A DNA stretch of 64,000 bases from an uncultured Gammaproteobacteria bacterium (GCA_964523905.1 CAZFYQ010000003.1:28976-92975), one strand, 5' to 3'; positions 25,570 to 64,000 are shown, counted from the first letter of the stretch. Numbers and translations: made by a program. The notes: generated from the letters alone by a model not told the origin.

Positions 25570-25578
25570 TTTACGTTT

Positions 25579-25593
25579 ACACCTGAGAGGTGT
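25579..25593. repeat. Solo REP-like hairpin ACACCT-gag-AGGTGT between convergent genes
   Basis: Same arms as the hairpins flanking transposase copy 1. Confidence 0.5.
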
Positions 25594-25597
25594 CAGG

Positions 25598-26233
25598 CTA
25601 AATAAATTGGAATACTCCGCCTAAATTGTTTAATACTTTATCTGCCTGGCTAAAATCCCCGTCCATAGTTTCTTTACCAGGTATAGCAAATACAGTCATA
25701 CCTGCTGCTACAGCTGCTGCCACCCCAATCGGTGAATCTTCCAGCACTAAACAATCATTGGGGTCCACGCTGATTGCTTTAGCAGTTAGTAAATAGACAT
25801 CTGGAGCGGGTTTTCCTCTCTTAACATTTTCTGCAGAATACAACGCATCAAAAAAATCGCCAACCTCTAAGGCCTTGACAATAATATTAATAGTGGCAAT
25901 CTGAGAACTGGAAGCAATGGCCATTTTGATACCTACTCGCCTTAAATCATTTAATAGATCCATTAAACCAGGACGAGGGAGAATTTTATCTAGAAGTTGT
26001 CTGGTAATAACTTGCTTTTGATCAAATAATTCCTCAGCAGTTATGGGTAGCTGGTAACGGGTGACCATGTCTACAGCGCAATCCATGTCTGTTTTACCAA
26101 GATACAACTTTATGTTATCTTCTTCAGTGAATTGTTTGCCGTATTTTTGAAACACCTGATCAAAAGCCTGCTGATGAATTGGCTCGGAATCCACCATTAG
26201 TCCATCCATATCAAAAATCACTGCTTTAAACAT
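25598..26233 (-). CDS. HAD-superfamily hydrolase (beta-phosphoglucomutase-like phosphatase)
   Basis: Motif I VIFDMDGLMVDSEP, motif IV GKPAPD...LEDSPIG. Start set at MFKAVIFD; the track ORF extends to 26311. Confidence 0.75.
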   Translation of the reverse strand: MFKAVIFDMDGLMVDSEPIHQQAFDQVFQKYGKQFTEEDNIKLYLGKTDMDCAVDMVTRYQLPITAEELFDQKQVITRQLLDKILPRPGLMDLLNDLRRVGIKMAIASSSQIATINIIVKALEVGDFFDALYSAENVKRGKPAPDVYLLTAKAISVDPNDCLVLEDSPIGVAAAVAAGMTVFAIPGKETMDGDFSQADKVLNNLGGVFQFI

Positions 26234-38818: not shown

Positions 38819-39718
38819 TTATTTTTTAAAGGCTGTGACTTTGTACATGGAAAATAACAGTACTACTACTCCCAAAATTTGAGTCAGGGTTAATCCCTGG
38901 TGGAAATAAAAGTAGCCAATGAAAATGGCTGAAGCCGGCCAAATTAATTCATAAATAGTACTGGTACGGGCCGGAATTTTCTTTAAGCCATAATAATAAA
39001 TCGCCAAAGCCACCATACCAGTAGAAAAGGTAATTGTTAGCAGAGCCAGCCACTGATTTGTGTTCAAAGTAGTTAGAGCCGCGGTTTGGTGTAACCCCAC
39101 AATCAAGGCAAATGCCATAATTGGAGCCAGCAGAAAACGTAAGCCAGTAACAGTTAATGAGGAAGTTTTGTTCAGCACGTATTTACTAATTGCAGTTGAA
39201 GATCCCCACATCATCCCGGCAAGGAGTGCCAAGCCACCAGCAATGGCAGTACCTCCACCAGTTTGCAAATTAACGCTTAAATCTTTAAAAGTAATAAAGT
39301 AGGTAGAGACTAAAGCCACGACAGCCCAAAGTAAGAAGTTTTTGGTCAGTTTTTCTCTTAATAACAAAGCAGCAGTTGAGATAGTCCAAATAGGCTGCAA
39401 TTGTTGCAGTAAAACCACAACCGAAAATTGGATATAGTTAATCTGACCCAAAGCTGCAGTATAAAAAAGAGTACCTAAAACCGATGCAAATAAAGCTACC
39501 AGCGCAATGGCAATCCACTCCTTTTTGGTCATCTTACCAATGTCTTTAACCCATTTTGGAGCTAAGAATAGTAGTACAATAATTCCCAGAAGATGTTCGT
39601 AGAAAACTACCACTGCCGGAGGTAAGGCGTATAAGCTGACCCGAAGCAGGCCATCAAGACTCCACAAAAGAGCTGCAATAATAACAAACAGCGGACCAAA
39701 GTCCTTTAATTTTTTCAT
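38819..39718 (-). CDS. EamA/DMT family transporter
   Basis: Ten TM helices, duplicated EamA pattern. Confidence 0.7.
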   Translation of the reverse strand: MKKLKDFGPLFVIIAALLWSLDGLLRVSLYALPPAVVVFYEHLLGIIVLLFLAPKWVKDIGKMTKKEWIAIALVALFASVLGTLFYTAALGQINYIQFSVVVLLQQLQPIWTISTAALLLREKLTKNFLLWAVVALVSTYFITFKDLSVNLQTGGGTAIAGGLALLAGMMWGSSTAISKYVLNKTSSLTVTGLRFLLAPIMAFALIVGLHQTAALTTLNTNQWLALLTITFSTGMVALAIYYYGLKKIPARTSTIYELIWPASAIFIGYFYFHQGLTLTQILGVVVLLFSMYKVTAFKK

Positions 39719-39868
39719 CGTTCAATCTTTCATTCTGACTTTACAGCCGCTACCGGAGTTTCGCCGGTTCGTGTCCGGCAATGCCGGACTCGTGGAGTGT
39801 ACCACCGATTAGGATTTTCACCTGACCCCGAAAGAACATTTTTATCTTATGCAGATAGTTCTGGTTTG

Positions 39869-40888: not shown

Positions 40889-40942
40889 TTATTTAATAGT
40901 TTGAATTTAACATACACTCTCCCACTTTTCAACATTAGGCAG

Positions 40943-41655
40943 ACACCTTAAAGGTGAGTGCGTAAAAATTAGTCGTTTATATCTATTAATTGGTGTTTAA
41001 TAATTTCTAATTCACTACCATAAGCTATTTGGTCCTCTGTGAATTCTTTATATCTCTCAGGCGAGGAGAAGAAAGCCAGAACCTCACCTAAGGCGCAATA
41101 CCTTGAGTTACCTGATAAATATTCCTCATAAGATGACCAAGGATAAGCTTCCAGCTCTTTTACCATTCCCGACACTATTGGATTTAAATGAATATAGCGG
41201 GACACATGGACGAATTGCTCATCTGACTCAATTAAAACAGATTTAAATGTGCCTTGAAAAAGTGATCCTACCCGTCGGTATTTAGTATTGAAGTATTTGG
41301 TATAACTGTTAGCCAGCTGACTTGAAAAAAGTGAAATACCGCCATCCTTTAGTTGTTTTACCAGAAAATGGAAATGATTTGGCATTAAGCAATAAGCCAG
41401 AATTTCAACCAGTTTCTTATCCTGTTGAGGTATAAAGGAACTAAATGTATTTCTTGATAGCTTAGACAATCGGGATTTTGGTCCTTGGTATTGATAGTAA
41501 TAGAAGGTATTTTGAAACCTGCGATAATCTCTAGGTTGGGTAAAGATATCACGTTTCTCACTACCTCTATTGTAGATATGATAAATCTCACCGCTTACTA
41601 GTGGAACTAGTCTTCCTGGCATTATCTTTAGTTTACGAGTACACCTTAAAGGTGT
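40943..41655 (-). mobile_element. RAYT/IS200-like unit bounded by identical palindromes ACACCTTAAAGGTG
   Basis: Hairpin copies at 40943-40956 and 41641-41655 tightly bracket only the transposase gene. Confidence 0.55.
40969..41622 (-). CDS. HUH Y1 tyrosine transposase, RAYT/IS200-like (copy 1)
   Basis: N-terminal YHIYNRG, HuH motif LMPNHFHFLV, catalytic-Tyr region RYIHLNP, and a C-terminal YPWSSY motif as in RAYTs. Start set at MPGRLVPL; the track ORF runs to 41658 and would include the upstream hairpin. Confidence 0.75.
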   Translation of the reverse strand: MPGRLVPLVSGEIYHIYNRGSEKRDIFTQPRDYRRFQNTFYYYQYQGPKSRLSKLSRNTFSSFIPQQDKKLVEILAYCLMPNHFHFLVKQLKDGGISLFSSQLANSYTKYFNTKYRRVGSLFQGTFKSVLIESDEQFVHVSRYIHLNPIVSGMVKELEAYPWSSYEEYLSGNSRYCALGEVLAFFSSPERYKEFTEDQIAYGSELEIIKHQLIDIND

Positions 41656-41707
41656 CAAGCTAATGCAAAGAAGTTATATTTAAGCTTGCTTATGATAAAC
41701 TAAGAAT

Positions 41708-45374: not shown

Positions 45375-46799
45375 ATGGCTATACCAGAAAATACTATTGA
45401 GATAATTGGGTCTGGGTTTATTGGTGATAAAGCAGACCAGTTGCTTCAAAAAAGAGAGGCAATTGTTGCTGCCGGTTTTTCTATCCCACCTACTATTGTC
45501 CTCGCACAGGATGTTTTTGAACCAATGATAGATATTGCTAGGGGTGGTAAGTTTAATAATAACCAACGTAGACTTTTTCAAGAGGTGGTCGAACAGTTTG
45601 GTAATCGCCCGCTTGTTGTTAGATCCTCTGCTGCGGGAGACGCTAGAGGAAGCGGAATTTATTTCTCTGAATTTGTTCCAGCCTCAGCACTAAGAGTGCG
45701 TTATGCTATCGGGAATGTATTAAGCAGTTATTATAGCGAAAGCGCTAAAGCTTTTAGAAAAGATGCTGCTACAGGTGAGGGTATGGCAGTAATGATTCAA
45801 CCCGTGGTTGGACAGGTACTTATCGACGTGGGAGGTGGCAAATCCATATTTGCTCCACATTATTCTGGATTTGGTTACAGTTCAACCGCAAGAGAGGATA
45901 CAACTATCTCTATCGTCCCGGGTTTAGGAGGAGGAGTAAATAATAGAGATGGCATCGATTTAAGTCTAGGTCAAGCTAGAATGTATGGCCATCCTTTACC
46001 AAATAGGTATCAAGCCTATTTTCATAATTCTAAAAAATCATTTGACTATATTGGACATGATAGTCATGAATTGGTAAATGGAGGACGGTGGTATAGTGAT
46101 CACTATTATGAAGAGGATTTCGATTTCTTACCTTTGTTAGAGAAGTTGGAATTGCTAGAGGGGAAATTGGGTAATCCACAATATCTTGAATGGGCAGCCA
46201 CACTCGAGGATAATGATCCACGATTTTGGATGCTACAAATTGCAGACGCGGATATAAAATTGGATGCATTTCATTTTGAGGATTATGGAGACATTATATA
46301 CGAAGGAGGTATTGACGTAGTGGGATCCGGGGTTAAACGTTGCAATCAGATTGTTGATCTTAAAGGCTCCAGTGGTTTGAATGCGCTTTATAATTTTAAT
46401 CAACAAAATTCAGGTTATATAGCCTTTTTGCCTGCTTTCTTATCTTCTCCGCGGCAAGAATACAGAACAGATAGTAGGCGGCTGGTTTATGCTGATTTTT
46501 CAAATGCATCGGTGGTCTTTGGGAATTCTGGGGAGCGTGGAACTTTGAAAGATCACCTAGGAACTACAATGGATTTAACAAATAAGTTATACGGAACTAT
46601 TTTAGGTTACAGAGAACTAGGCTTAGAAGAAGAGGGGGATGTTCGGAGTAAAAGATTAAGTAATCTCGAACGAGAAATAGTTGGAGATGGATTAACTATC
46701 ATAAAAGGTAATTTTACTGTGGTTGCCAGCGAGAGACAAAATCGAATGATTATTACTTACCAAGGACCGATTTCTGATGAAGTTTGCGATGATAAGTAA
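45375..46799 (+). CDS. Stand-alone PEP-utilising-enzyme N-terminal (PPDK_N ATP-grasp-like) domain protein
   Basis: LVVRSSAAGDARGSGIYFSEF and AVMIQPVVGQ resemble the nucleotide-binding domain of PEP synthase, pyruvate phosphate dikinase and rifampin phosphotransferase. No phosphohistidine swivel motif is seen. Start moved to an internal ATG because the 5' part of the track ORF (from 44967) is antisense to the DUF360 gene. Confidence 0.5.
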   Translation: MAIPENTIEIIGSGFIGDKADQLLQKREAIVAAGFSIPPTIVLAQDVFEPMIDIARGGKFNNNQRRLFQEVVEQFGNRPLVVRSSAAGDARGSGIYFSEFVPASALRVRYAIGNVLSSYYSESAKAFRKDAATGEGMAVMIQPVVGQVLIDVGGGKSIFAPHYSGFGYSSTAREDTTISIVPGLGGGVNNRDGIDLSLGQARMYGHPLPNRYQAYFHNSKKSFDYIGHDSHELVNGGRWYSDHYYEEDFDFLPLLEKLELLEGKLGNPQYLEWAATLEDNDPRFWMLQIADADIKLDAFHFEDYGDIIYEGGIDVVGSGVKRCNQIVDLKGSSGLNALYNFNQQNSGYIAFLPAFLSSPRQEYRTDSRRLVYADFSNASVVFGNSGERGTLKDHLGTTMDLTNKLYGTILGYRELGLEEEGDVRSKRLSNLEREIVGDGLTIIKGNFTVVASERQNRMIITYQGPISDEVCDDK

Positions 46800-48033
46800 T
46801 GGCAAATCTGTGGGCTTCGTCGCGGATTTTGGTGACCATTTTTAAGGCTTCAGAGTGTTTGGGAAGTTTTACAACACTACCATCCGGTGCATACAACCAT
46901 TCAAAACGTTTGGCTAATCCAAACATAGGAACGCTAACATTTCTCTCCTGAAAAACTTGATGAATGGCACTTACTTGGCCAGCTCCCCCATCAATGATAA
47001 ATAAATCAGGCATTGGCCATTCGGGGTGATTTAGCCTTCTTCGCATCATTTCCTGATGCATAGCGTAATCATTAGGCTTGCCAGTAATATGAATCTTAAA
47101 TTTACGATATTGTGATTTATCAATGTCGCCATGGGTTAAAACTACCATTGAACCCGTTGATTCATGACCTTGGATATTAGAGATGTCGTAACATTCAATC
47201 CGCTCCGGAAGTGTTGGCAAATTTAAAACTTTTTGCAGCTCTTCCAGGCCAATTTGATATTGATCCTGCAGGAAATTGGGATTCTCTAAATAGCTGCCGG
47301 TTCTATTAGTCTGCGTTAAATATTCAACTCCTGATAAAGTCTGTTTAATCCTGCCGGCTTGTTCAAAATCTTGATCTTTGGATGCCGCAACCATTTCCTT
47401 GGTTAATTCCTTAACCAGACTGTCTTTATCTCCATTTAGAAACTTAACTAGTCTGTTAATGATTTTTTTATAATCTTTTTGATTAATTACTCCTGCACAA
47501 GGACCCGGGCATTGACCTAAGTGATAGTAAAAACAAGGCTTTAGCTTCGCAAGGCGTTGCCTTGGAGGCTGAGAGCACCAAGGGAAAACACGGCGCAAGG
47601 ATTTTAAAGTTGACCGGACTGTTTGAGCAGAAGGAAAAGGCCCAAAATATTTCAAAGCTGTTTTTAAATCAGCTTTTCTGGCTGTTAACACCCTTGGAAA
47701 ATCTTCTTTAGTGATTAATATATATAAGTAGGATTTATCATCTTTTAAACTGACATTAAAAATTGGCCAATACTTTTTAATTAGATTAGCTTCCAGAATT
47801 AAAGCTTCCAACTCTGATTCCACAATAATGGTTTCTATACCAGCAATCTGCTCCACTAATGTCAATAACTTTACGTTCCCATTTGACAAGTGGGAAGCTG
47901 AAAAATATGACGCAACACGGTGATATAAATCAATAGCTTTACCAACATAAATTACTTTGTTAGCATGATCCTTATAAATATAAACTCCGGGTTTGTGCGG
48001 AACTTGTGACTTATCTATAAATTTTGGAAGCAT
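46753..48033 (-). CDS. uvrC: Excinuclease ABC subunit C (short form lacking C-terminal HhH)
   Basis: GIY-YIG N-terminus (KPGVYIYKD...IYVGKA), Cys-rich UvrC segment CFYYHLGQCPGPCAG, and an RNase H-like domain with YDISN. Confidence 0.8.
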   Translation of the reverse strand: MLPKFIDKSQVPHKPGVYIYKDHANKVIYVGKAIDLYHRVASYFSASHLSNGNVKLLTLVEQIAGIETIIVESELEALILEANLIKKYWPIFNVSLKDDKSYLYILITKEDFPRVLTARKADLKTALKYFGPFPSAQTVRSTLKSLRRVFPWCSQPPRQRLAKLKPCFYYHLGQCPGPCAGVINQKDYKKIINRLVKFLNGDKDSLVKELTKEMVAASKDQDFEQAGRIKQTLSGVEYLTQTNRTGSYLENPNFLQDQYQIGLEELQKVLNLPTLPERIECYDISNIQGHESTGSMVVLTHGDIDKSQYRKFKIHITGKPNDYAMHQEMMRRRLNHPEWPMPDLFIIDGGAGQVSAIHQVFQERNVSVPMFGLAKRFEWLYAPDGSVVKLPKHSEALKMVTKIRDEAHRFAITYHRKLHQKSVLGK

Positions 48034-48081
48034 AAGGAGAATTATACTTAAATTAAACTTAAGTCACAATCCAGTTAGCAA

Positions 48082-48756
48082 TTACTTTGCGGTAGGTTGA
48101 TCCCTGTGGAAGAACTTTTCGTGTGTTAATAATGCCATTGGCTGTTCTTTATACCGCAGTATTTCGTGACCGGAAGCAGGTTTTCCTTCAACAAGCCATT
48201 TTCTGGCCGGAGAAGAATCCCCAGGTTGCACATAAGTCATTGCTAGAACCAGTTGTTCATCTTGTATAGAAAAGGCACGATCAATTCCTCGCTTAATTTT
48301 TCCTTGTATAAGAATTTCTCCCCGTACATTAAGCTCAGCAGCGATAAAGTTATCACTACCATTTGTACCTGTTTTATAATCAGGTTCCCAAAGCAACAGC
48401 CAACGATAGGTTGGAGAAATACCAGTTTTAGGATCTCCCACCAATCCTTCGGCTGAAGTTGGATAGATTGGAATACGGTGGTTCACGGGCTCTTGATCAG
48501 AATGCTCTGCTAATCTTTGAGAGTGAGCTACTTCACGATCCATTAAAGCAACTTTTAACTCTCTAAGCACCTTAGCCGTTATTGTAAAACCAGCTAATTG
48601 CTCTAGCATACTGGCTTGAGCTTGCCAGACTTTCGGTGTAGTCTTATCTTGTGACTGAACTGTCCTGTTATACTCAAATGTTTCAGCAAATGCTCTAGAC
48701 TTATGGTCAATTTCCTGGTTTCTTGCTATTTCAGATGCTGCTTCAAGTATTGACAT
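48082..48756 (-). CDS. Hypothetical protein (cassette gene 3)
   Basis: ORF in a tight co-directional cluster; no motif recognised. Confidence 0.4.
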   Translation of the reverse strand: MSILEAASEIARNQEIDHKSRAFAETFEYNRTVQSQDKTTPKVWQAQASMLEQLAGFTITAKVLRELKVALMDREVAHSQRLAEHSDQEPVNHRIPIYPTSAEGLVGDPKTGISPTYRWLLLWEPDYKTGTNGSDNFIAAELNVRGEILIQGKIKRGIDRAFSIQDEQLVLAMTYVQPGDSSPARKWLVEGKPASGHEILRYKEQPMALLTHEKFFHRDQPTAK

Positions 48757-48817
48757 TTAAGTGGAATTTATATCTTTAAAGTATATTTGTCAAGAACAAT
48801 GAAACTTGGCAGCATAT

Positions 48818-49417
48818 TTAGCTTGTAAATGATTCCTGATAATGTTCCTGTTGTTCCTTAGGAGTTGGAAGCTGATAAAGAGACGCACCGTCAATTTCAT
48901 TATACAACTGTGTAAGCTGGTCAGGTTTTAATAGGTAATTACCAGGATAACTGGTTTTATATTTGGCGGCATTAAAAAAGTGAGGGACTTGGTAGGGATC
49001 CTTGATTTTTCCAGTCTTCCAATCCACTCTCTCATTTGGAACTAACTCTATTGGACCCCTGATTTGAGCTCCAGTAATATTTGCCACAGCCCACATTTCC
49101 ACCTCAGTCTTTGATCCTAAACCAATTCTTACTTTGTCAGAGTCGAATTTCTGACCTTGAGTTGATAGCTTCTCTGCAAGTCGTTCCCAGATTTTCTTAG
49201 TGGATGCTTCTATTTGCTGGGCTTCATTTTCATTGGGAATATATCTTCCAATACGAGGGTGATAAATTGGAACATTAATTTTCCAAAACCGCATATATGT
49301 CCAACGACTATCAAAATTAAAATGATGAGCAACCTCACTAGCCTGTTTTCCTGCTTCTGCATTCATAACCTGAAGAGTATACAGCGATTTTATTTTTTTA
49401 CAAGCCTGTAGGCTCAT
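48818..49417 (-). CDS. Hypothetical protein (cassette gene 2)
   Basis: ORF whose start overlaps the upstream gene by 20 nt; no motif recognised. Confidence 0.4.
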   Translation of the reverse strand: MSLQACKKIKSLYTLQVMNAEAGKQASEVAHHFNFDSRWTYMRFWKINVPIYHPRIGRYIPNENEAQQIEASTKKIWERLAEKLSTQGQKFDSDKVRIGLGSKTEVEMWAVANITGAQIRGPIELVPNERVDWKTGKIKDPYQVPHFFNAAKYKTSYPGNYLLKPDQLTQLYNEIDGASLYQLPTPKEQQEHYQESFTS

Positions 49418-50075
49418 TCCAATATGCTTCGTAATGAGGACTCACCGGAAGCTGCTTGTCGTAAGTATCTATCATTGCTTCGATCAGGTGATCATATATT
49501 CCATTTTTGACTTCTATGTATTTTTGACCAGGAGGAGTTCTTTTGCCTAGGGCTTCTGTAACCTCATCTTCAGTTGGTTGATAAAACAATGTTGCTTTCT
49601 TAATTCTGCTAAATGGAAAAATACCCTCGGGTAACCTAGAACTACTATCCCTATAAGGCCAATCTTTTCTACCTACACCAATTTCTGGATCAAATTCCAT
49701 TCTAAGGTGATCAAATATAGTACGACTAACCACGCCCGAAACATAACAAGGCAATTTACGCTCATCATTCCTACCCACTGTTGCTGTATAGAGTTTAGGA
49801 AAAGGGATTAAAATAGAATCAGCAAAAGATTCACCCTGCACATCACTCATTATTAAATTTCTTTTACCATCGACCTCCATACCAGCAACTATAGTCTCGC
49901 CCATTCTTAGGCCTACATAGTTCAATTGAGCGCTTAGAAAATCATATGTGGATACAGGTTTGGACTTTGGAGATATTGGTGTAGTTTCTGCTGGAGAATC
50001 TTTTAGAGAAAGGGCATTTCTTACTCTTCCCCAAAGTGCTTGAGTTGTTCTTTCTACTTGTGCACCGACTGCCAT
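49398..50075 (-). CDS. Hypothetical protein (cassette gene 1)
   Basis: ORF 24 nt downstream of the transglutaminase-like gene; no motif recognised. Confidence 0.4.
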   Translation of the reverse strand: MAVGAQVERTTQALWGRVRNALSLKDSPAETTPISPKSKPVSTYDFLSAQLNYVGLRMGETIVAGMEVDGKRNLIMSDVQGESFADSILIPFPKLYTATVGRNDERKLPCYVSGVVSRTIFDHLRMEFDPEIGVGRKDWPYRDSSSRLPEGIFPFSRIKKATLFYQPTEDEVTEALGKRTPPGQKYIEVKNGIYDHLIEAMIDTYDKQLPVSPHYEAYWNEPTGL

Positions 50076-50099
50076 ATTATTTACGAGTATATCACTGGA

Positions 50100-52028
50100 T
50101 TATTTTTTTACAATAGTCTTTTTGAAGCGGCGGCGGTAAATTAGGCCGCCTAAAATTACCAAATATGTGACTCCCATTAAAGAAATAATGCCAATAGCGA
50201 TTAAAGGCACGGTTTGGAAAATAAAGAAAGGCTGGATCGAGACATCTTTAGTAAACTTTTGTGAGCCTACTGATACCACAATTTGATCATTAAAGCGATC
50301 AAACAAAGAAGTAGTTCTGGTATTAAAATCAAAGCTGGCCGTGCCAAAAGGAGCTACTGGTCCTAGATTTTGAGTCCCACCCCCCAGAATCAGAAGTTTA
50401 GAGGAAGCGACGCTCAGTGAATCCGGCGGATAAACTGAATTACCAAGATTGGAAATTTTAACTGTTACTTTTCCCGGGAAACCAGCCCATATTGGGTTGG
50501 AATTTTCAATCTGCACATTAAGTTGTGGCTTACCTAAGAAATCATTATCAGACAAAGTAACTTTAACATCATGAGTATCCTGACCCGGATATTTATAGGA
50601 ACCAGCCGGAATCGGAGACACTGAAGATGTACCCTTAATGGCAAAGGTAAAGTGATTTAAGTCCAGTTTATTAAAATAATCCACACCTCCTGTGGTATTT
50701 TCCCAAGTTGGATCAACCATCACCCAACCTTTGGACTCATCCCAATATTCCGGCCAAGCATGTAAAACATCTTTAGAAAAAGACAACGGACGAAGCGTCG
50801 GATTAGAAGTATAGGCAAAACCATCCAGCTCCCGGGTGGGAATTCCAGCAGCACGGGCCAAAGCAATAAATAAATCCGTAAACTCCATACAAACTGCTTG
50901 AGTGGGATTGTTTAAGATAGCCACAGCTCCCAGACGTTCAATATTGTCATTAATCCGACCAGGATCATAAGTTAAGGTATTAACCACGTAATGATAAATT
51001 AAACGGGCTTTTTCAGTGGGATTTTGGGGCGGATTTGTTCCTAGGATTTCCGCTAATTTAGACTGAATTTGCGGATTATCCTTTTCCCAGTATTTATCGG
51101 TTTTGGTGTAGGCTTGCCTTAAATTATCAGGTAGCTCCGGATTTTTAACTTTACTATTGGTATAAAGCTTGGCTGAACCATTGACCTTAACATCTAATTT
51201 TTCTCCCCTGGTCAGCCGATACCAAGCCAAGTAGTTACCGTCATCATCTACTGTGACATTTTCCGGCTTAGGTTCGATTCTTGATGTAATCACATCCTGA
51301 TAAGCAGTGTCCGGAGGAAGTGCCACGCTGGTTAAAATTGGCACCAGGTTGGTGTTTTCTAAATGGTAAGTGAGGTCAAAGTCAAATAGTTGAAAAGTAC
51401 CAAAAGAAGCAGAGACACCGGATTGCTGCAGTTGGTCTTTAGAAAATGTCAAAAACATCCGGTCCCCGGAGACAGTTTGGGTTTTAGGAGTTGGGGCAAT
51501 CAAGCTGGGATCACCAAAAGATGTAGGCACGGAAATAGTCAGGTTATAACTTTCTAAATTACCGGAAGAAACCTTGGGAGCACGCACTTCCCAAACTTTA
51601 CCAGTACGTTCTGCAAAATCTTTGGATTTAAATTGCAAAGTCCAGGGTAAGATTTTATCTTTTCCCACCACCTGAGAATTAAACTTAACTGAAAGAGTGG
51701 TAGAAGTCCCGGTCTGCTGCTGTGAAACCGGCATTGGGCCAGTTGCATCTGAGGCTTTTAAATCATAAATCTGAGTGGCACCAATAATTAATTTAAATTC
51801 AGAAGCATAGTATTCGGAGGTTAAATTACGCAGATTAACTTTTTCAGTAACTGTAGTTACTCCATCAGTACCTACATCATAGGCCACATCATAGGCTGTG
51901 GAAAATTGCGAGGTAGTGGGGGCTGAAGTATCAGCAGCATATACATATGTAGGCAGCAGGCTGTAGGCAACAGGCATCAGTAGAACTAAGGCTAGGAATA
52001 CTGAGAGAAGTTTATGCAAAATCCGCAT
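50100..52028 (-). CDS. Transglutaminase-like cysteine protease superfamily protein, secreted with C-terminal TM anchor
   Basis: Signal peptide. Cys-His-Asp core: AVCMEFTDLFIALARAAGIPTR ... LHAWPEYW ... VMVDPTW. C-terminal hydrophobic helix followed by RRRFKKT. Confidence 0.75.
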   Translation of the reverse strand: MRILHKLLSVFLALVLLMPVAYSLLPTYVYAADTSAPTTSQFSTAYDVAYDVGTDGVTTVTEKVNLRNLTSEYYASEFKLIIGATQIYDLKASDATGPMPVSQQQTGTSTTLSVKFNSQVVGKDKILPWTLQFKSKDFAERTGKVWEVRAPKVSSGNLESYNLTISVPTSFGDPSLIAPTPKTQTVSGDRMFLTFSKDQLQQSGVSASFGTFQLFDFDLTYHLENTNLVPILTSVALPPDTAYQDVITSRIEPKPENVTVDDDGNYLAWYRLTRGEKLDVKVNGSAKLYTNSKVKNPELPDNLRQAYTKTDKYWEKDNPQIQSKLAEILGTNPPQNPTEKARLIYHYVVNTLTYDPGRINDNIERLGAVAILNNPTQAVCMEFTDLFIALARAAGIPTRELDGFAYTSNPTLRPLSFSKDVLHAWPEYWDESKGWVMVDPTWENTTGGVDYFNKLDLNHFTFAIKGTSSVSPIPAGSYKYPGQDTHDVKVTLSDNDFLGKPQLNVQIENSNPIWAGFPGKVTVKISNLGNSVYPPDSLSVASSKLLILGGGTQNLGPVAPFGTASFDFNTRTTSLFDRFNDQIVVSVGSQKFTKDVSIQPFFIFQTVPLIAIGIISLMGVTYLVILGGLIYRRRFKKTIVKK

Positions 52029-52122
52029 GAAGATATTGTAACAAACTCAAAATTTTATTGCATTTAGTTTGATATAGATAATGTGTCTTGTTATTTAAAA
52101 CTTTGAATATTATTATCAAACT

Positions 52123-52503
52123 ATGGCTGATGATACTATCAAGCAAATTTCTCAACTTTTAGATTCAAAAATCAAACCATTACATGGAGAAATAGCCAAA
52201 ATTCACCATGATTTATCTGATCTTAGGTCTTCTTATCTACAAAATAGTGTTGGAATAAAAAATATTAGAAATGATACCGCTAGAATTGATAGTGAGTTAG
52301 AAAATATCAGAGGATCACTTGAAAATCCCGATATTGGATTGAAAACGATAAATGAAAAGCTAGATCTTCAGGCTGAAATGTTAGATAATCACACTGAAAC
52401 TCTCAATGATATGGCTGTAAAAGTAGAAAAAAGACTAGGTTCGTTAGAAGACGGTGCAGATATTAAAGTTTCTCCTAAACTCCAATTAGTTGATATTGCC
52501 TAA
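52123..52503 (+). CDS. Hypothetical coiled-coil protein
   Basis: Heptad-rich ORF convergent with uvrA. Confidence 0.35.
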   Translation: MADDTIKQISQLLDSKIKPLHGEIAKIHHDLSDLRSSYLQNSVGIKNIRNDTARIDSELENIRGSLENPDIGLKTINEKLDLQAEMLDNHTETLNDMAVKVEKRLGSLEDGADIKVSPKLQLVDIA

Positions 52504-55439
52504 ATAATTTTGGCTAAGTAGTGGCCGGTGTGGGAGGTTTTGACTTTGGCAACTTGGGCAGGAGTGCCTTCGGCAATGACTTGACCGCCACCAGTACCAC
52601 CTTCCGGACCCAGATCAATAATCCAGTCAGTATTTTTAATTACATCCAAGTTATGTTCAATAATAATGACGGTGTTACCAAAATTAACTAGTTTTCTAAG
52701 GATCGCCAGTAGTCTTTCAATGTCTGCAAAGTGCAAACCAGTGGTTGGTTCATCTAAGATATAAATGGTTTGCCCGGTTTGTCTTTTGGACAGTTCACTG
52801 GATAATTTAATCCTCTGGGCTTCCCCACCTGACAAAGTCGGAGCCGGCTGACCCAAGCGGATATAACTCAAACCAACATCATTTAATACCTGGATTTTGT
52901 TTTTAATATTAGGGATATTTTCAAAGAATTTTAAGGCTTCTTCTACAGTCATTTCCAACACTTCTGAGATATTTTTATCCTTAAAATGAATGTCTAAAGC
53001 TTCACGGTTATAGCGTTTACCACCACAAGCCTCACAAGTGACATAAACATCCGGCAAAAACTGCATTTCTATTTTAATTTGACCCTCTCCTTCACAAACT
53101 TCACAGCGGCCTCCTTTAACATTAAAACTAAATCTACCCGGACCATATCCGCGGATTTTAGCCTCGGGTGATGCAGCAAATAATTCCCTAATAAAAGTGA
53201 AGGCGCCGGTATAAGTGGCTGGGTTAGACCTGGGGGTACGTCCGATGGGTGACTGATCAACCAAGATCACTTTGTCTATTTTGTCAGCGCCTTCCATTGA
53301 CTTAAACTGGCCGGGTTTTTGCCTAGAACCGTACACTTTTTGAGCCAAAGCCCGGTATAAAATATCATGTACTAAAGTGGATTTACCGGATCCAGATACT
53401 CCGGTTACTGCTACAAACTGTCCAAATGGAAAAGTGACTGTGACATTTTGTAAATTGTGCTCAGAAGCTCCGGTTAAAGTTAGTTTGCCCATATCTACGT
53501 ATGGCCGCTGCAGTTCTTCAGAGATTTTGACAGTTCTTTTGCCAGATAGATATTGGCCGGTTAAAGAATCAGGATTTTTTTTGATCTCATCAGGAGTACC
53601 AATGGCCACAATTCTACCGCCATGTTCCCCTGCTCCTGGTCCAATTTCTACCATTAAATCAGCTGCTTCCATGGTTTCTGAATCATGCTCATTAACCACT
53701 ACGGTATTACCTAAATCTCGCAGGCGTTTTAGAGTCTCAATCAAACGAGTGTTATCCCTTTGATGTAAGCCAATTGATGGTTCATCCAAAACATAGAGCA
53801 CTCCGGATAAACCTGAGCCGATTTGAGAGGCTAAACGGATTCTTTGAGCTTCACCACCAGCTAGAGTCATGGAAGCCCGGTCAATGGTTAGATAATCCAA
53901 ACCAACATCAACCAAAAACTTTAGACGCGAGATTATCTCTTTCAAAATAGATTTAGCAATTTGTTTTTCTCTTTCAGATAGTAATGGATCCAGTTTACTA
54001 AACCAATTCAAAGCCTCGTTAATAGCCTGAGTAGTAACCTCGGAGATATTTAAGCCATCTATTGTTATTCCTAACGCTTCCGGTTTCAGTCTGGCTCCAT
54101 GACACTCGGGACAAATCTCGGTTAACATGTATTTTTCGATCTCGGCTTTAACAAAATCCGATTCAGTTTCTTTATATCTTCGCTCCAAATACGTAATAAT
54201 ACCTTCAAAATTACTGTCAAAATGAGTCCAACGACCAAAACGATTTTGCCCTTGTACTTTAAATACTTCACCGCCAGTCCCATTTAATAGAATCTGTCGG
54301 GCTTTTTCTGACAACTGACCCAGGCGGGTACTTAAATCAAAGTCATATTCTTTACCAACAGCTTCAATTAAACGGGTAAACCAGGTTTCACTGCTACCCA
54401 GTTTGCTCCAAGGTAAGATTCCGCCTTCGGCAATCGACAGGATTGGATTTAGCACTAAACTGGAATCTATTTTTAACAAGGTACCCAAGCCAGTACACTT
54501 GGTACAGGCCCCGTGAGGTGAATTAAAAGAAAAGGTCCGCGGTTCGATTTCCGGCAAGGAAATATTGTCTACCGGACAAGCAAAACGCTCGGAATAAAGA
54601 TGATCCTCCATTTTTTTAGGATTGGTGGGAAATTCCAGGGATTTGTCCATTACATCTGCCACAACTACTGATCCCTCCCCTAATTTTAAGGCTGTTTCAA
54701 TACTTTGAGTTAAACGGGAAATAATATTAGGATCTTTGGTACTCTTTTTATCCAAAACCAGCCGGTCAATCACAGCATCAATAGTATGTTTGTTGGTTTT
54801 AATTAATACTAAGTCATCACTTAAATCACTAACCTGCCCATCAACGCGCACCTTAGAGAAACCTTTTTTTCGAAGGTCCTCAAATACTGATGAATACTCA
54901 CCTTTACGGTCTTTGACAACCGGAGCTAAGATCATTATCCTTCTCCCTGCGTTGCCTGTTGCCTGTTGCCTGTTGCCTGTAATCTGTTCCACTATCTGCT
55001 GCACTGACATTTGAGTGATTTCCCGGCCACAAATTGGACAATGTGGGTGACCAACACGGGCGAATAACAACCTCATATAGTCATAAATTTCCGTGGTAGT
55101 TCCCACAGTGGAACGCGGATTATGGGAAGCGGATTTTTGATCAATAGAAATAGCCGGTGATAAACCTTCAATATTATCTACATCAGGCTTGTCCATTACT
55201 CCCAAAAACTGCCGGGCATAGGCTGAAAGGGATTCTACATAACGGCGTTGGCCCTCTGCATAAAGAGTATCAAAAGATAAGGAGGATTTGCCTGATCCGG
55301 AAATTCCAGTAATCACCACTAATTTGTCCTTTGGAATTTCCAAATCAATGTTTTTGAGGTTATGTTGTCTGGCCCCTCGTATGATAATTTTATCTGCTGC
55401 CATAGTTTTCCCGAAGAATGAAGAGTCTATTATAACCAA
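52500..55439 (-). CDS. uvrA: Excinuclease ABC subunit A
   Basis: Two ABC modules ([10 protein letters not shown] / [10 protein letters not shown] Walker A, LSGGE signatures), Zn-finger Cys pairs, and [13 protein letters not shown]. Confidence 0.95.
54952..54979. repeat. Perfect heptanucleotide tandem repeat (ttgcctg x4) inside the uvrA ORF
   Basis: Four exact units followed by a degenerate fifth (taatctg). They encode the loop insert [10 protein letters not shown] of UvrA. Confidence 0.8.
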
Positions 55440-55474
55440 CTTAGCAAGATTATGGAAGACCCTATTAGACTAAT

Positions 55475-55503
55475 TTGACATCTAAATATAACTATGAGAT
55501 TAT
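55475..55503 (+). promoter_or_regulatory. Sigma70-like promoter TTGACA-17-GATTAT abutting the ATG at 55511 (leaderless-type)
   Basis: Sequence match. The predicted transcription start coincides with the start codon. Confidence 0.4.
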
Positions 55504-55510
55504 TTGGCCA

Positions 55511-55828
55511 ATGAGACGATATGATGGGGAACCAAATCTAGGCAATGAATTAATAAAATATGCCGCAAGAAAATTTGAAGGATCTCCGCTGAGTGAGTCC
55601 CTAAGAAGGGTATGGGAACAAATACCGGCTTATCCGATAAAAGAATCTGAACCTATTACTGCCGCTGCGGCACTGGCAACTAGCATGTTAGTTTCTATCC
55701 CCGGAATGATTGCAATAAATGAAGGCATAAAGCATGAAAACTACGCAGAAACTGCATTAGGACTAGCTTGGGTGGCATTACAATATGCAATTATTCGGGT
55801 AAGCGTCGGCCGTGGTATCGGAAGATAA
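55511..55828 (+). CDS. Hypothetical small protein (105 aa)
   Basis: ORF. The track begins it at a TTG (55475) that is the -35 box. Confidence 0.35.
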   Translation: MRRYDGEPNLGNELIKYAARKFEGSPLSESLRRVWEQIPAYPIKESEPITAAAALATSMLVSIPGMIAINEGIKHENYAETALGLAWVALQYAIIRVSVGRGIGR

Positions 55829-55837
55829 ATTAATTAG

Positions 55838-55882
55838 TTAATTCTTTAATTTGATCTCTGATTCTGGCTGCTTCTTCAAAGA
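55838..55882. repeat. Direct repeat copy A of the uvrB 3' end (~45 nt)
   Basis: About 87% identical to 57931-57975. On the minus strand it encodes FEEAARIRDQIKELTN-stop, i.e. the UvrB C-terminal UVR motif, preceded in frame by a stop. Confidence 0.8.
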
Positions 55883-55906
55883 ATTATACCGTGGTATAAT
55901 TGGATT

Positions 55907-56310: not shown

Positions 56311-56338
56311 TGATTTTCTAGGCTAAATGTCCTATAAT
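56310..56338 (+). promoter_or_regulatory. Near-consensus sigma70 promoter TTGATT-17-TATAAT
   Basis: The -10 ends 6 nt before the ATG at 56345, so a leaderless transcript is predicted. Confidence 0.5.
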
Positions 56339-60158: not shown

Positions 60159-60207
60159 CAGGCTATTTTAGCATAGCAAAGATTATTTGTTGTTAATAGC
60201 AACTATC

Positions 60208-60967
60208 AACCTGGGAGGTGGACTACGTTGACACCTAGGGAAAATTTGAATATTGTTATATTATGCCCGGAAGAAAGATTCCTCTAATTACTGGTGAGAC
60301 ATACCATGTATTTAACAGAGGTATTGATAGAAGACCCACCTTTACCAATAAAAGGGAATTAGACAGGGCTCAAAAGACCATCAGTTTTTACAATTTTTTT
60401 GAACCACCGGTTAGTTTATCAAAATTCCTAAGACTTGAGACAAAGAAGCAAAATGAAATTCTTGATGCTTTAGCCCAAAACAAGAAATTAGTTGAGATTT
60501 TTTGTTATTGCTTAATGCCTAATCATTTTCATCTATTAGTAAGACAAGAGCGAGACAAAGGAATTGCTAAATTTCTAAGCAATTTACAAAATAGTTACAC
60601 GCGATACTTTAATGTAAAACACTCCAGAGATGGTTCACTTTTTCTGGACCAATTTAAAGCCGTGCGGATAGAAACTGACGAGCAGCTCTTGCACGTATCC
60701 CGCTATATTCACTTAAATCCCCATACCGGTTTTGTGGTGAAAACTCTGGATGAACTTGAAAATTACCCTTGGTCCTCATTTCCAGATTACCTACAAAATA
60801 ATGACCAGGTTGTGGATACTGAATTCATACTAGGTTTATTTAAGAATGCTAAACAATATAAGGAGTATGTATTCGATCAAGCTGATTATCAGCGAGAATT
60901 AAGCTTAATAAAACATTTAGTTTTGGAATAATCCCTAGGTTGCCTATCTGGATAACCTCCCAGGTGG
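60208..60967 (+). mobile_element. RAYT/IS200-like unit bounded by ~35-bp imperfect terminal inverted repeats built from ACCT/AGGT hairpins
   Basis: Left end aACCTgggAGGTgg...ACACCTAGGG (60208-60240). Right end CCCTAGGT...aACCTcccAGGTgg (60933-60967), beginning 2 nt after the stop codon. Confidence 0.55.
60263..60931 (+). CDS. HUH Y1 tyrosine transposase, RAYT/IS200-like (copy 2)
   Basis: YHVFNRG, HuH CLMPNHFHLLV, SRYIHLNP, and C-terminal YPWSSF. About 45% identical to copy 1. Confidence 0.75.
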   Translation: MPGRKIPLITGETYHVFNRGIDRRPTFTNKRELDRAQKTISFYNFFEPPVSLSKFLRLETKKQNEILDALAQNKKLVEIFCYCLMPNHFHLLVRQERDKGIAKFLSNLQNSYTRYFNVKHSRDGSLFLDQFKAVRIETDEQLLHVSRYIHLNPHTGFVVKTLDELENYPWSSFPDYLQNNDQVVDTEFILGLFKNAKQYKEYVFDQADYQRELSLIKHLVLE

Positions 60968-63272: not shown

Positions 63273-64000
63273 GTGAAAAACGTGAAGCTTCTAAATAAAT
63301 TAATTTCCTCTGTTGCCATTCTCTCTTTGTTGTTTTTCCAAATGGTTACACCTTTGGAGGTGTTGGCTCAGGAAGCTACTGTTACTCCTACCCCTACTGA
63401 CACCGTACAAACTGATGCTACTCCAACACCTACTCCAACTGACTCTGTAAGTCCAACGGAAACCCCCGCCCCAACTGACCAGCCAACCGTCACTCCCGCT
63501 GACACGTCTACACCAACTCCTGCACTAACTGAAACTCCTGCTCCAACAAACACACCTACCCCAACTGAAACACAATCAGCTCCTGTTCAATTAGTAGCTT
63601 ATGTCTACACTGACCAGTCAGATTACTCACCAACTCAAAAAGTATTAATCTATGGAAAAGACTTTTCTGTAAACGAAGGCTACACTGTCAAAGTCAGCTC
63701 AACTGATGAACCAGCAGTTGAAGCTCCGCTGTCTGTAACTACAGATGCAGCTGGATCATTTTCTACAGCATACCAACTAGACGGCAACTACCGACCAAAC
63801 TATGCCGTAGCTGTGGTAGACGGTTCAGGAAATACAGTTGCTACTACAACATTTACAGACAGCACTAACAAAGTTGGAACAGTAACTGTAGGGGCACAAA
63901 GCGGATCATTAACGGCAGGTACTGCTGGTAGCGCAACGTATTTAATAACTGTCAATAGTAATGGTGGCGCTTTTACAGCGAATTTGACATTACCATCTCT
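63273..64000 (+). CDS. Secreted protein with Thr/Pro-rich linker and beta-sandwich-like domain (partial; 3' end outside window)
   Basis: GTG start, signal peptide VKNVKLLNKLISSVAILSLLFFQMVTPLEVLA, about 70 aa of TP-rich linker, then a Gly/Thr-rich domain. It is not in the ORF track because it has no stop within the window. Confidence 0.5.
   Translation, partial: MKNVKLLNKLISSVAILSLLFFQMVTPLEVLAQEATVTPTPTDTVQTDATPTPTPTDSVSPTETPAPTDQPTVTPADTSTPTPALTETPAPTNTPTPTETQSAPVQLVAYVYTDQSDYSPTQKVLIYGKDFSVNEGYTVKVSSTDEPAVEAPLSVTTDAAGSFSTAYQLDGNYRPNYAVAVVDGSGNTVATTTFTDSTNKVGTVTVGAQSGSLTAGTAGSATYLITVNSNGGAFTANLTLPS
63348..63363. repeat. Solo REP-like hairpin ACACCT-ttgg-AGGTGT
   Basis: Same arm sequence. 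It lies within the 5' signal-peptide coding part of the last gene. Confidence 0.4.

What the first reader, a model, noticed from the sequence alone, without database searches (positions are those of the whole stretch)
40943..41655. RAYT-like HUH transposase bracketed by identical ACACCTTAAAGGTG hairpins (REPtron-like unit)
The 217-aa protein has an HuH motif (HFHF), a catalytic Tyr region, and a C-terminal YPWSSY motif like REP-associated tyrosine transposases. Perfect 14-15 nt palindromes with arms ACACCT/AGGTG(T) sit 13 nt past the stop and about 20 nt before the start. Solo copies of the same arm family occur at 25579-25593 and 63348-63363, and the second transposase (60263-60931) is flanked by ACCT-ggg-AGGT and ACCT-ccc-AGGT hairpins. 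Together this points to a genome-wide REP family serviced by these enzymes. The chance of ACACCT-N3-4-AGGTGT occurring four times in 64 kb is negligible.
Basis: partly seen in the sequence, partly recalled or inferred. Interest (0 to 1): 0.6.

Follow-up and report, generated by a model that had tools for sequence, protein, structure and literature searches.

The report
Hairpin-flanked tyrosine transposase-like gene unit
A small gene for a single-strand-DNA cutting enzyme of the REP-associated (RAYT/TIRYT) kind sits between two matching 43-base inverted repeats with a hairpin core. The same gene-plus-matched-hairpins layout recurs across the ultra-small CPR bacteria, so it is a real but essentially known type of element in a group where it had not been described.

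Summary
ACACCT-N3-4-AGGTG occurs at four sites in the window, against 0.07 expected. A perfect 14-nt copy lies 12 nt after the stop and 18 nt before the ATG of a 217-aa ORF (40969-41622, minus strand).

The protein is a Y1 HUH enzyme with invariant H83/H85 and Y143 in YIHLNP. It is closer to E. coli TnpAREP than to IS200/IS608 TnpA by both sequence and predicted fold.

The hairpins are the cores of 43-nt imperfect terminal inverted repeats. The upstream repeat also carries the gene's promoter (TTGACA-17-TAAACT, ATG 7 nt later).

One solo (25570-25602) is a true homologous copy. The other (63348-63363) lies inside a coding sequence and is doubtful.

In 43 of 64 relatives, mostly from CPR genomes, a lineage-specific hairpin flanks the gene on both sides, against 17 of 673 control ORFs. 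Solo copies exist at low density.

Identical proteins always sit in one genomic context, paralogues are about 50% identical, and no TnpB is adjacent. This is a REPtron/TIRtron-like, low-copy, apparently domesticated unit, not an active IS200.

I rate it a new member of a known kind, of moderate interest.

The parts
40969..41622 (-). Gene 1: 217-aa Y1 HUH enzyme (RAYT/TIRYT-like). HUH = H83-F-H85; catalytic Tyr = Y143 in RYIHLNP; WSS at 162-164.
   Evidence: ORF and translation. Pfam Y1_Tnp 33.8 bits. NCBIfam REP_Tyr_transpos 61.9 bits, below the cut-off of 80. PDB 4ER8 alignment places Y143 on Y115 of TnpAREP. Invariant residues. AlphaFold model pLDDT 85.6. Foldseek best hit 4ER8, E=5.5e-8.
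41623..41674 (-). Upstream repeat arm, which is also the promoter. On the gene strand it reads TTAGCTTG-ACACCT-TTA-AGGTGT-ACTCGTAAACT. Hairpin 41641-41655; -35 TTGACA 41658-41653; -10 TAAACT 41635-41630; the ATG follows 7 nt later, a leaderless-type layout.
   Evidence: Sequence. Promoter scan scores 10 of 12. TTGACACC occurs only twice in the window, both times here and before gene 2. Inverted repeat I1. Single-strand DNA fold -5.2 kcal/mol.
40924..40968 (+). Downstream repeat arm. On the + strand it reads ATTAGGCAG-ACACCT-TAA-AGGTG-AGTGCGTAAAAA. Hairpin core 40943-40956. It is inverted relative to the upstream arm, so the TTAG tags face outward.
   Evidence: the repeat finder I1: 43 nt, 72% complementary, 665 nt between the arms. 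D1: 14-nt perfect core. Flank identity is 17/32 in inverted register and 12/32 in direct register.
25570..25602 (-). Solo copy of the gene-1 repeat: TTTAGCCTG-ACACCT-CTC-AGGTGT-AAACGTAAA. It fills the 28-nt gap between two convergent genes. The TAG in its tag is the stop codon of the HAD-hydrolase gene (25598-26311).
   Evidence: Sequence. Shared flanks. Neighbouring genes.
63348..63363 (.). ACACCT-TTGG-AGGTGT hairpin inside a coding sequence, at the signal-peptide end of a Thr/Pro-rich protein. Family membership is doubtful.
   Evidence: The loop is 4 nt, no tag abuts the stem, and the site lies within an ORF that runs off the window.
60263..60931 (+). Gene 2: 222-aa paralogue, 50% identical to gene 1, with the same catalytic motifs.
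   Evidence: Closest relatives are 73-78% identical.
60205..60262 (+). Gene 2 upstream unit: hairpin AACCT-GGG-AGGTG (60208-60221), a 9-nt spacer, then TTGACACCTAGGG (a third arm-like copy that includes the -35, 60228-60240), then the -10 TATTGT (60251-60256). The ATG follows 6 nt later.
   Evidence: Homology with L130 (protein 73% identical, different genomic context) starts at about 60205.
60932..60967 (-). Gene 2 downstream unit, inverted relative to the upstream one: CCCTAGGTT (60933-60941), a spacer, then hairpin AACCT-CCC-AGGTGG (60954-60967).
   Evidence: Homology with L130 ends at 60967, the outer foot of the hairpin.

Best explanation
Each of the two genes encodes a single-domain Y1 HUH single-strand-DNA endonuclease/transferase of the TnpAREP (RAYT/TIRYT) class. 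Each gene sits inside its own pair of imperfect inverted repeats (about 35-43 nt) whose core is a short GC-rich hairpin.

Shown:
- The catalytic residues are intact and invariant.
- The fold and sequence are nearest to TnpAREP.
- The repeat pair is specific to each gene and changes with the lineage across relatives.
- Homology between relatives in different genomic contexts starts and stops at the outer feet of the hairpins, so the repeat-gene-repeat block is the inherited unit.
- Solo repeat copies occur in other intergenic sites at low density.
- The upstream repeat contains a near-consensus sigma-70 promoter that ends 6-7 nt before the ATG.

Inferred by analogy with E. coli TnpAREP and IS608 TnpA:
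- The enzyme binds the hairpin extruded on single-stranded DNA together with the adjacent tag (TTAGC in this clade).
- It cuts and rejoins next to the hairpin, which occasionally copies or moves solo repeats and, rarely, the whole unit.
- Because the hairpin overlaps the -35 box and spacer, binding would also repress the enzyme's own promoter.

The unit behaves as a low-activity, vertically inherited (domesticated) element, not as a multiplying insertion sequence.
For: Protein:
- Pfam Y1_Tnp.
- The Y-x3-NP, NHFH, FQ and WSS motifs match class 2 / subclass 2.1 of Quentin et al. 2018.
- 4ER8 is the best PDB match by profile and by Foldseek on a pLDDT 85.6 model.

Repeats:
- 43-nt inverted repeat.
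- 43 of 64 relatives carry the same perfect hairpin arm within 100 nt on both sides, against 17 of 673 other ORFs (Fisher 1e-39).
- The arms differ between lineages: ACACCT, CAACCT, TCCACCC, CAAGGT, TCGAAG and others.

Unit boundaries.

Solos:
- Window 25570-25602.
- L002 at 1500 and 17250.
- Metagenome scan: 15 intergenic solos against 11-12 gene-linked copies among 37 distinct contexts.

Promoter:
-.
- 36 of 68 relatives have TTGnnn-16/18-TAnnnT ending 4-10 nt before the ATG, against 15% of control ORFs.

Domestication:
- Paralogues are 50% identical.
- Identical proteins always sit in one context: P0203 in 19 contigs, P0210 in 11, P0002 in 9, P0130 in 6.
- The gene-1 type lies next to uvrA in L002, L004, L005 and L133, at 60-67% identity. 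That is within the 56-80% range of neighbouring housekeeping genes.
- No TnpB is adjacent.
Against: - No biochemical activity is known for this branch.
- Scores are below the NCBIfam RAYT cut-off.
- The canonical GT[AG]G tag is absent.
- The stems are only 5-6 bp, with modest stability (-5 kcal/mol, z about -1.6 to -2.4).
- Repeat copy number is low, and the whole source genome could not be searched.
- Both inverted and direct flank arrangements occur among relatives (17 inverted, 20 direct by loop), which one mechanism does not obviously explain.
- The position of the unit differs between the window and its nearest relatives. The whole unit has therefore moved at least once, which blurs the line with an insertion sequence.
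Confidence: 0.72

Rival explanations
1. It is an autonomous IS200-group insertion sequence. The two hairpins are the left and right subterminal ends, the whole 0.73-kb unit transposes through a single-stranded circle, and solos are decayed ends.
For: - The hairpins lie at the ends of the conserved block.
- The core is a perfect direct repeat on one strand, as in IS608.
- Some relatives have 27-45-nt direct repeats: L004, L006, L009, L010, L012.
- The unit occupies different slots in related genomes.
Against: - The Y motif is Y-x3-NP, not the Y-x3-Q of subclass 1.1.
- The fold is closer to TnpAREP than to IS608/ISDra2.
- No near-identical second copy is present; the paralogues are 50% identical.
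- Identical proteins always lie in one context across up to 19 contigs.
- The position next to uvrA is conserved across genomes at 60-67% identity.
- The flanks of the window pair align better inverted than direct.
- Solos fit tightly between genes with no remnant of a decayed gene.
Confidence: 0.13
2. The hairpins are only cis-regulatory. The upstream one is an operator within the promoter, the downstream one is a terminator or mRNA-stabilising stem, and no DNA mobility is involved.
For: - The upstream hairpin overlaps the -35 box and spacer.
- The downstream hairpin lies 12 nt after the stop.
- Solos tend to lie just after stop codons of convergent genes.
Against: - The downstream hairpin of gene 1 has no T-tract and is not called as a terminator.
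- Both copies share 43 nt of inverted-repeat homology beyond the stem.
- Upstream and downstream stems change together across lineages.
- Tagged solos occur at unrelated loci.
- The enzyme keeps an intact nuclease active site in all 55 aligned homologues.
Confidence: 0.08
3. It is a chance co-occurrence of short palindromes around an ordinary gene.
For: The stems are short (5-6 bp), and the genome is AT-rich with many small palindromes (132 six-bp hairpins in the window).
Against: - 0.07 matches are expected and 7 are found.
- The control ORF rate is 2.5%, against 67% for relatives.
Confidence: 0.01

Closest known systems
TIRtron / TIRYT (Di Nocera et al. 2013, PMC3733652); corresponds to TnpAY1 subclass 2.1 of Quentin et al. 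2018 (PMC6006769) and Group 1 RAYTs of Bertels et al. 2017 (PMC5581495)
   Same: - A Y1 enzyme of about 220-240 aa with NH[YF]H, FQ, Y[IV]HLNP and an SS tail.
- About two divergent copies per genome, roughly 49% identical.
- The gene is flanked by long terminal inverted repeats, some of them self-complementary.
- The repeat families have only low to moderate copy number.
   Different: - No GGGGWSAS motif in the repeats.
- No Pfam-detectable helix-turn-helix tail of the Bac_DnaA_C, HTH_23 or HTH_28 kind; the tail is predicted as one long helix.
- The host group is CPR/Patescibacteria, which those surveys did not sample.
- Quentin et al. found no REP-like hairpins next to subclass 2.1 genes, whereas here a hairpin is the repeat core.
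REPtron: E. coli TnpAREP (RAYT, subclass 2.2) with REP/BIME sequences; PDB 4ER8
   Same: - It is the best structural and sequence match.
- The gene lies between inverted cognate hairpin repeats.
- A short unpaired tag lies 5' of the stem.
- Each paralogue has its own repeat type.
- The gene is single-copy and vertically inherited.
   Different: - Only 20% identical, with about 50 extra C-terminal residues.
- The tag is TTAG(C), not GT[AG]G.
- The stems are 5-6 bp, not 10 or more.
- Repeat density is about one per 20-60 kb, not hundreds per genome.
- The repeat carries the gene's promoter.
IS200/IS605 family TnpA (IS608, ISDra2, IS200; subclass 1.1)
   Same: - The HUH/Y1 fold.
- Subterminal hairpins at both ends of the unit.
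- Recognition of single-stranded DNA hairpins is expected.
   Different: - The Y-x3-NP motif replaces Y-x3-Q.
- The protein is longer.
- No TnpB is adjacent.
- No identical multi-copy set is seen.
- The flanks are inverted in the window pair.
- The fold match is weaker (E about 5e-4 against 5.5e-8).
Subclass 2.4 TnpAREP with REPs inserted in-frame inside the gene (Quentin et al. 2018)
   Same: Nine distant relatives (L037, L038, L048, L053, L057, L060, L063, L072, L078) carry a third, cognate hairpin inside the ORF without breaking the frame.
   Different: - In eight of the nine the internal copy lies before the HUH motif, 154-184 nt after the start. In L037 it lies at nt 499. [quoted passage not shown]
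- The linker is not lengthened.
- It is absent from both window genes.

Membership tests
Y1 HUH transposase superfamily (Pfam PF01797 Y1_Tnp) | Match to the family profile above the gathering score | tested here: met
   33.8 bits (gene 1) and 39.7 bits (gene 2) against a cut-off of 23.
Y1 HUH transposase superfamily | HUH metal-binding motif and a single catalytic tyrosine, both conserved | tested here: met
   H83, H85 and Y143 are invariant in 55 sequences. Y143 aligns with the catalytic Y115 of 4ER8.
TnpAY1 class 2 (TnpAREP/RAYT sensu lato; Quentin et al. 2018) | Y motif Y-x3-NP, as opposed to the Y-x3-Q of IS200 | tested here: met
   YIHLNP in both genes and in all aligned homologues.
RAYT (NCBIfam NF047646 REP_Tyr_transpos, equivalog) | Score at or above the curated cut-off of 80 bits | tested here: not met
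   61.9 and 49.3 bits. It is the only NCBIfam hit, but it falls below the cut-off.
TnpAY1 subclass 2.1 / TIRYT / Bertels Group 1 | Motif set NH[YF]H, FQ, Y[IV]HLNP and an SS tail; about two divergent copies per genome | tested here: met
   NHFH, LFQG, YIHLNP and WSS are present. Two paralogues at 50% identity lie in one 64-kb window. This is a motif-level test only; the authors' HMMs were not available.
TnpAY1 subclass 2.1 / TIRYT | C-terminal helix-turn-helix domain (Bac_DnaA_C, HTH_23 or HTH_28) | tested here: not met
   No Pfam hit other than Y1_Tnp at E<=0.01. The model shows short helices and one long C-terminal helix, 188-215.
TIRtron | Gene flanked by long terminal inverted repeats | tested here: met
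   43-nt arms, 72% complementary. Gene 2 has hairpin-spacer-CACCTAGGG units in inverted orientation.
TIRtron | GGGGWSAS motif shared by most described TIRs | tested here: not met
   Absent from both window repeat pairs by direct reading.
REPtron | Cognate REP hairpins flank the gene in inverted orientation | tested here: met
   Relatives: 43 of 64 against 2.5% of controls.
REPtron | REP carries a 5' GT[AG]G tag at the foot of the stem | tested here: not met
   The tag is (T)TTAGC(T/C)TG in the window clade. GTAGC occurs in L005, L133 and one L002 solo.
REPtron | The same REP is dispersed at high copy number (over 100 per genome) in extragenic space | tested here: inconclusive
   The window holds one clear solo in 64 kb. 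L002 has two in 20 kb. Metagenomes give 15 solos against 11-12 gene-linked copies. The whole source genome was not available.
IS200/IS605 insertion sequence | Several near-identical copies per genome; the same protein in different contexts | tested here: not met
   The paralogues are 50% identical. Identical proteins are confined to one context in 6-19 contigs. No genome-wide count could be made.
IS200/IS605 insertion sequence | Frequent association with tnpB | tested here: not met
   The neighbours are a DsbD-thioredoxin fusion, hypothetical proteins, uvrB and an EamA transporter. No OrfB/TnpB domain was found.

The most novel reading that the evidence does not exclude
The repeat may be more than a passive transposase target. 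It is a double-footed palindrome that carries a complete sigma-70 promoter: the -35 box lies at the tag/stem junction and the -10 box in the opposite foot.

On this reading the enzyme and its hairpins form a self-regulating module. Solo copies would then act as portable promoter, antisense-promoter or 3'-end elements in streamlined CPR genomes. The gene cassette might also hop between solo repeats by HUH-mediated site-specific exchange.

Three observations point to a conserved host-level role:
- a third, co-varying hairpin inside the coding sequence in nine distant lineages;
- repeats that supply stop codons;
- synteny that breaks exactly at a repeat edge.
Probability: 0.12. Interest if true: 0.7.

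Novelty: new member of a known kind. Interest (0 to 1): 0.4.

Why it matters
RAYT/REP and TIRYT/TIR systems have been studied almost only in Proteobacteria, Cyanobacteria and a few other phyla. The open question there is why a transposase that no longer copies itself is kept.

This family has at least 532 clusters (at 50% identity) with E<=1e-30. It is found mostly across CPR/Patescibacteria, whose genomes are about 1 Mb and highly streamlined, and it often occurs as two or more divergent paralogues, each with its own hairpin.

Retention under such strong genome reduction argues for a host-level function. The small genomes and short repeats would make a tractable system for testing how hairpin specificity co-evolves with the enzyme.

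The finding also qualifies the published statement that the subclass 2.1-like branch has no associated hairpin repeats. No paper in the searchable library links REP/RAYT terms with CPR lineages.

Tried and rejected
- **First structure prediction.** A 20-sequence alignment gave pLDDT 58. It was not used. A 55-sequence alignment gave 85.6.
- **Covariation test.** I did not run a formal test on the collected hairpins. They had been selected for perfect pairing, so the test would be circular. The control on up/down matching replaces it.
- **Link with uvr genes.** The idea came from the window, L002/4/5, L133 and L146. Only 3 of the 80 genome loci have uvrA within 10 kb, so no general association exists.
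- **Remnant repeat at the slot next to uvrA.** I looked at window 52029-52122, where the relatives carry the gene. None is there.
- **Solo copies of the gene-2 repeat in the window.** None is convincing.
- **Occupied versus empty site (L083 against L084).** Homology stops at the repeat edge, but the right flanks are unrelated. No clean empty site was obtained.
- **Rfam.** No RNA family was found at the hairpins.
- **Whole-genome repeat count.** This was not possible.

Full report
**1. The observation**

The ORF at 40969-41622 (minus strand) starts with ATG at 41622 and encodes 217 aa beginning MPGR. ACACCTTAAAGGTG lies at 40943-40956, 12 nt after the TAA stop. ACACCTTAAAGGTGT lies at 41641-41655, 18 nt before the ATG.

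ACACCT-N3-5-AGGTG marks four sites in the 64-kb window (25579, 40943, 41641, 63348). The tool lists 7 matches because three palindromic sites match on both strands. Dinucleotide-preserving shuffles give 0.07 matches on average, and none of 100 reaches 7.

The second gene (60263-60931, plus strand, 222 aa) is flanked by AACCT-GGG-AGGTG at 60208-60221 and AACCT-CCC-AGGTG at 60954-60967.

**2. The protein**

- Both proteins match Pfam Y1_Tnp above the gathering score.
- Their only NCBIfam hit is the RAYT model REP_Tyr_transpos, but below its cut-off: 61.9 and 49.3 bits against 80.
- A profile of 20 homologues finds E. coli TnpAREP (4ER8) as the best solved relative (E=0.003), ahead of ISDra2 TnpA (E about 0.4). 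That alignment puts Y143, in RYIHLNP, on the catalytic Y115.
- H83, H85, Y143 and S164 are invariant in 55 homologues spanning 42-69% identity; S163 and W162 are nearly invariant.
- An AlphaFold model built on that alignment has pLDDT 85.6. Its best Foldseek match in the PDB is again 4ER8 (E=5.5e-8, target-normalised TM 0.66). IS608, ISDra2 and IS200 transposases follow at about 5e-4 to 1e-3.
- The motif set NHFH, LFQ, YIHLNP and WSS matches class 2 (Y-x3-NP), and within it subclass 2.1, of Quentin et al. 2018. That subclass corresponds to Bertels Group 1 and to most TIRYTs.
- The helix-turn-helix tail described for subclass 2.1 is not detectable. The model ends in one long helix.

**3. The repeats**

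The hairpins are only the cores of longer repeats. The repeat finder reports a 43-nt inverted repeat, 40924-40966 against 41632-41674, 72% complementary. Read with the tag at the 5' end, the three copies in the window are:

- ATTAGCTTG-ACACCT-TTA-AGGTGT-ACTCGTAAAC (upstream of the gene)
- ATTAGGCAG-ACACCT-TAA-AGGTG-AGTGCGTAAAA (downstream, on the other strand)
- TTTAGCCTG-ACACCT-CTC-AGGTGT-AAACGTAAAT (solo at 25570-25602)

. The gene is thus bracketed by inverted copies with the TTAG tags outward, the REPtron/TIRtron layout. The 25579 site is a true third copy.

The 63348 site lies inside a coding sequence, has a 4-nt loop and no adjacent tag. I treat it as doubtful.

Gene 2 has a different unit: hairpin, 9-10-nt spacer, then (C/A)ACCTAGGG. 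It is also inverted on the two sides. The window holds no solo of this type.

**4. The promoter**

TTGACACC occurs only twice in the window, and both sites are the -35 boxes in front of the two genes.

- Gene 1: TTGACA-17-TAAACT, with the ATG 7 nt later.
- Gene 2: TTGACA-17-TATTGT, with the ATG 6 nt later.

In gene 1 the left hairpin arm overlaps the -35 box, and the spacer holds the rest of the hairpin. Among relatives, 36 of 68 have such a promoter-like site ending 4-10 nt before the ATG, against 15% of control ORFs. A leaderless transcript and autoregulation through hairpin binding are inferences.

**5. Generality**

The organism is a Candidatus Daviesbacteria (CPR). The nearest proteins are 61-69% identical for gene 1 and 73-78% for gene 2. 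An exhaustive search finds 532 clusters at 50% identity with E<=1e-30, and 11,880 with E<=1e-10.

In 80 loci from GTDB species representatives, mostly CPR genomes, 43 of 64 genes with usable flanks have a perfect hairpin with the same arm within 100 nt upstream and within 100 nt downstream. The rate for other ORFs of the same loci is 17 of 673 (Fisher 1e-39).

The arm differs between lineages (ACACCT, CAACCT, TCCACCC, ACGATC, CAAGGT, TCGAAG, AGGGGT and others). The pair therefore co-varies with the gene. Both inverted and direct arrangements occur. The L006, L009, L010 and L012 clade has 45-nt direct repeats that include TTGACACCTGCGGAT.

**6. The unit and its mobility**

Window gene 2 and its 73%-identical relative in L130 lie in unrelated genomic contexts. 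DNA homology begins at about 60205 and ends at 60967, the outer feet of the two hairpins. The repeat-gene-repeat block is therefore what is inherited or moved.

Gene-1-type orthologues lie next to the 3' end of uvrA in L002, L004, L005 and L133. The window copy lies about 9 kb away in the same syntenic neighbourhood (SBP-holin-uvrC-transglutaminase-uvrA-uvrB). The unit has therefore relocated at least once.

Four lines argue against ongoing transposition:
- Identical proteins are always found in a single context: 19, 11, 9 and 6 contigs for P0203, P0210, P0002 and P0130.
- The paralogues in one genome are about 50% identical.
- Identity to orthologues (60-67%) lies within the range of the neighbouring housekeeping genes (56-80%).
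- No TnpB is present.

**7. Solo copies**

The clade tag TAGC(T/C)T followed by a hairpin finds two further solos of the cognate CAACCT hairpin in L002, at 1500 and 17250.

A scan of JGI/ENA metagenome contigs for TAGCYTG-ACACCT-N3-4-AGGTGT gave 48 loci and 37 distinct contexts:
- 11-12 lie 18-21 nt upstream of a RAYT-like ATG.
- 15 are intergenic solos.
- 11 fall inside mechanical ORFs. Some of these, such as L105 and L118, are clearly conserved coding sequence rather than repeats.

Many solos are double-footed palindromes (TTTAGCTTG-stem-loop-stem-AAAGCTAAA). Several abut the stop codon of a convergent gene. In the window the TAG of the tag is the stop codon of the HAD-hydrolase gene.

Solos are therefore real but few, about one per 20-60 kb. 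Bertels et al. report a similarly low flanking 16-mer frequency for Group 1, about 12 per replicon.

**8. Interpretation**

The best-supported reading is a RAYT/TIRYT-class Y1 enzyme with its cognate hairpin repeats. It is low-copy, vertically inherited, and rarely relocated as a whole (confidence 0.72). The mechanism is inferred from E. coli TnpAREP and IS608, not shown here. That mechanism is hairpin plus tag recognition on single-stranded DNA, with cleavage and rejoining beside it.

Rivals:
- An autonomous IS200-type element (0.13).
- Purely regulatory hairpins (0.08).
- Chance (0.01).

**9. Comparison with what is known**

The closest described entities are the TIRtron/TIRYT and the REPtron.

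Differences from these:
- The tag is TTAG(C), not GT[AG]G, and GGGGWSAS is absent.
- The stems are very short.
- The repeat embeds the gene's promoter.
- No helix-turn-helix tail is detectable.
- The host group is new.

Quentin et al. found no REP-like structures beside subclass 2.1 genes, whereas this 2.1-like branch has them. No paper in the searchable library links REP/RAYT terms with CPR lineages. I classify it as a new member of a known kind.

**10. A side observation**

In nine distant relatives a third copy of the lineage-specific hairpin lies in-frame inside the ORF. In eight of them (L038, L048, L053, L057, L060, L063, L072, L078) it lies 154-184 nt after the start. In L037 it lies at nt 499, and L063 has a second one at nt 453.

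The internal copy co-varies with the flanking pair: TACAAGGT in L057 and L078 against TCCAAGGT in L060 and L072. It does not lengthen the linker. In-frame REPs inside tnpAREP are known for subclass 2.4, but at a different position. Neither window gene has an internal copy.

Noticed in passing
L037, L038, L048, L053, L057, L060, L063, L072, L078 (e.g. L060:7098-7116, L072:1122-1140, L063:10174-10196): A third copy of the lineage-specific hairpin lies in-frame inside the RAYT-like ORF. In eight of the nine loci it is 154-184 nt after the start, before the HUH motif; in L037 it is at nt 499. It co-varies with the flanking pair and does not lengthen the linker. It is absent from both window genes.
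   Followed up: partly
window 39718-39839 (-): An FMN riboswitch (Rfam RF00050, 77.9 bits) lies directly upstream of an EamA-family transporter gene (38819-39718). The gene is probably a riboflavin transporter.
   Followed up: no
window 25567-25602: The solo repeat fills the 28-nt gap between a convergent MacB/FtsX permease gene and a HAD hydrolase gene. The TAG of its tag serves as the HAD gene's stop codon. L016 has different tagged hairpins (TTTAGCTT-CCCACAT-CCG-ATGTGGG) right after the orthologous permease gene (L016:7153-7230).
   Followed up: partly
L002:10668-10715: The downstream repeat of the L002 orthologue is split within its right arm by a 30-nt GC-rich hairpin (GCCTTCGGCCGTGAGCCTCAGGCCGAATCG) in an AT-rich genome. 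It may be another miniature insertion.
   Followed up: no
L083 (reverse strand 5090-5160 and 5830-5900) and L084: A direct repeat of about 19 nt, CACTTGAYTTATTGTAACA, lies outside both repeats of the L083 unit. L084 shares 1.5 kb of left flank plus the repeat with L083 (73.5% identity), and homology stops exactly at the repeat's 3' edge.
   Followed up: partly
window 46753-59893; L002, L004, L005, L133, L146: uvrC, uvrA and uvrB lie in one 13-kb neighbourhood. RAYT-like genes of both paralogue types sit next to uvrA or uvrB in several Daviesbacteria and one Levybacteria genome. Only 3 of the 80 genome loci have uvrA nearby, so no general link exists.
   Followed up: yes
window 63273-64000 (+): An ORF running off the window encodes a secreted Thr/Pro-rich repetitive protein. 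The doubtful ACACCT-TTGG-AGGTGT hairpin lies at the end of its signal peptide.
   Followed up: no
window 47550-47564 (+): TTTAGCTT followed by the hairpin CAAGGC-GTT-GCCTTG lies inside the uvrC coding region, on the antisense strand. It resembles the clade tag plus a stem but is probably chance.
   Followed up: no
L002-L081 and window, upstream regions of ORFs: About 15% of control ORFs have a sigma-70-like site ending 4-10 nt before the first ATG, and only about 10% have a Shine-Dalgarno-like motif. This hints at frequent leaderless or SD-less starts in these CPR genomes. Start codons were assigned mechanically.
   Followed up: no
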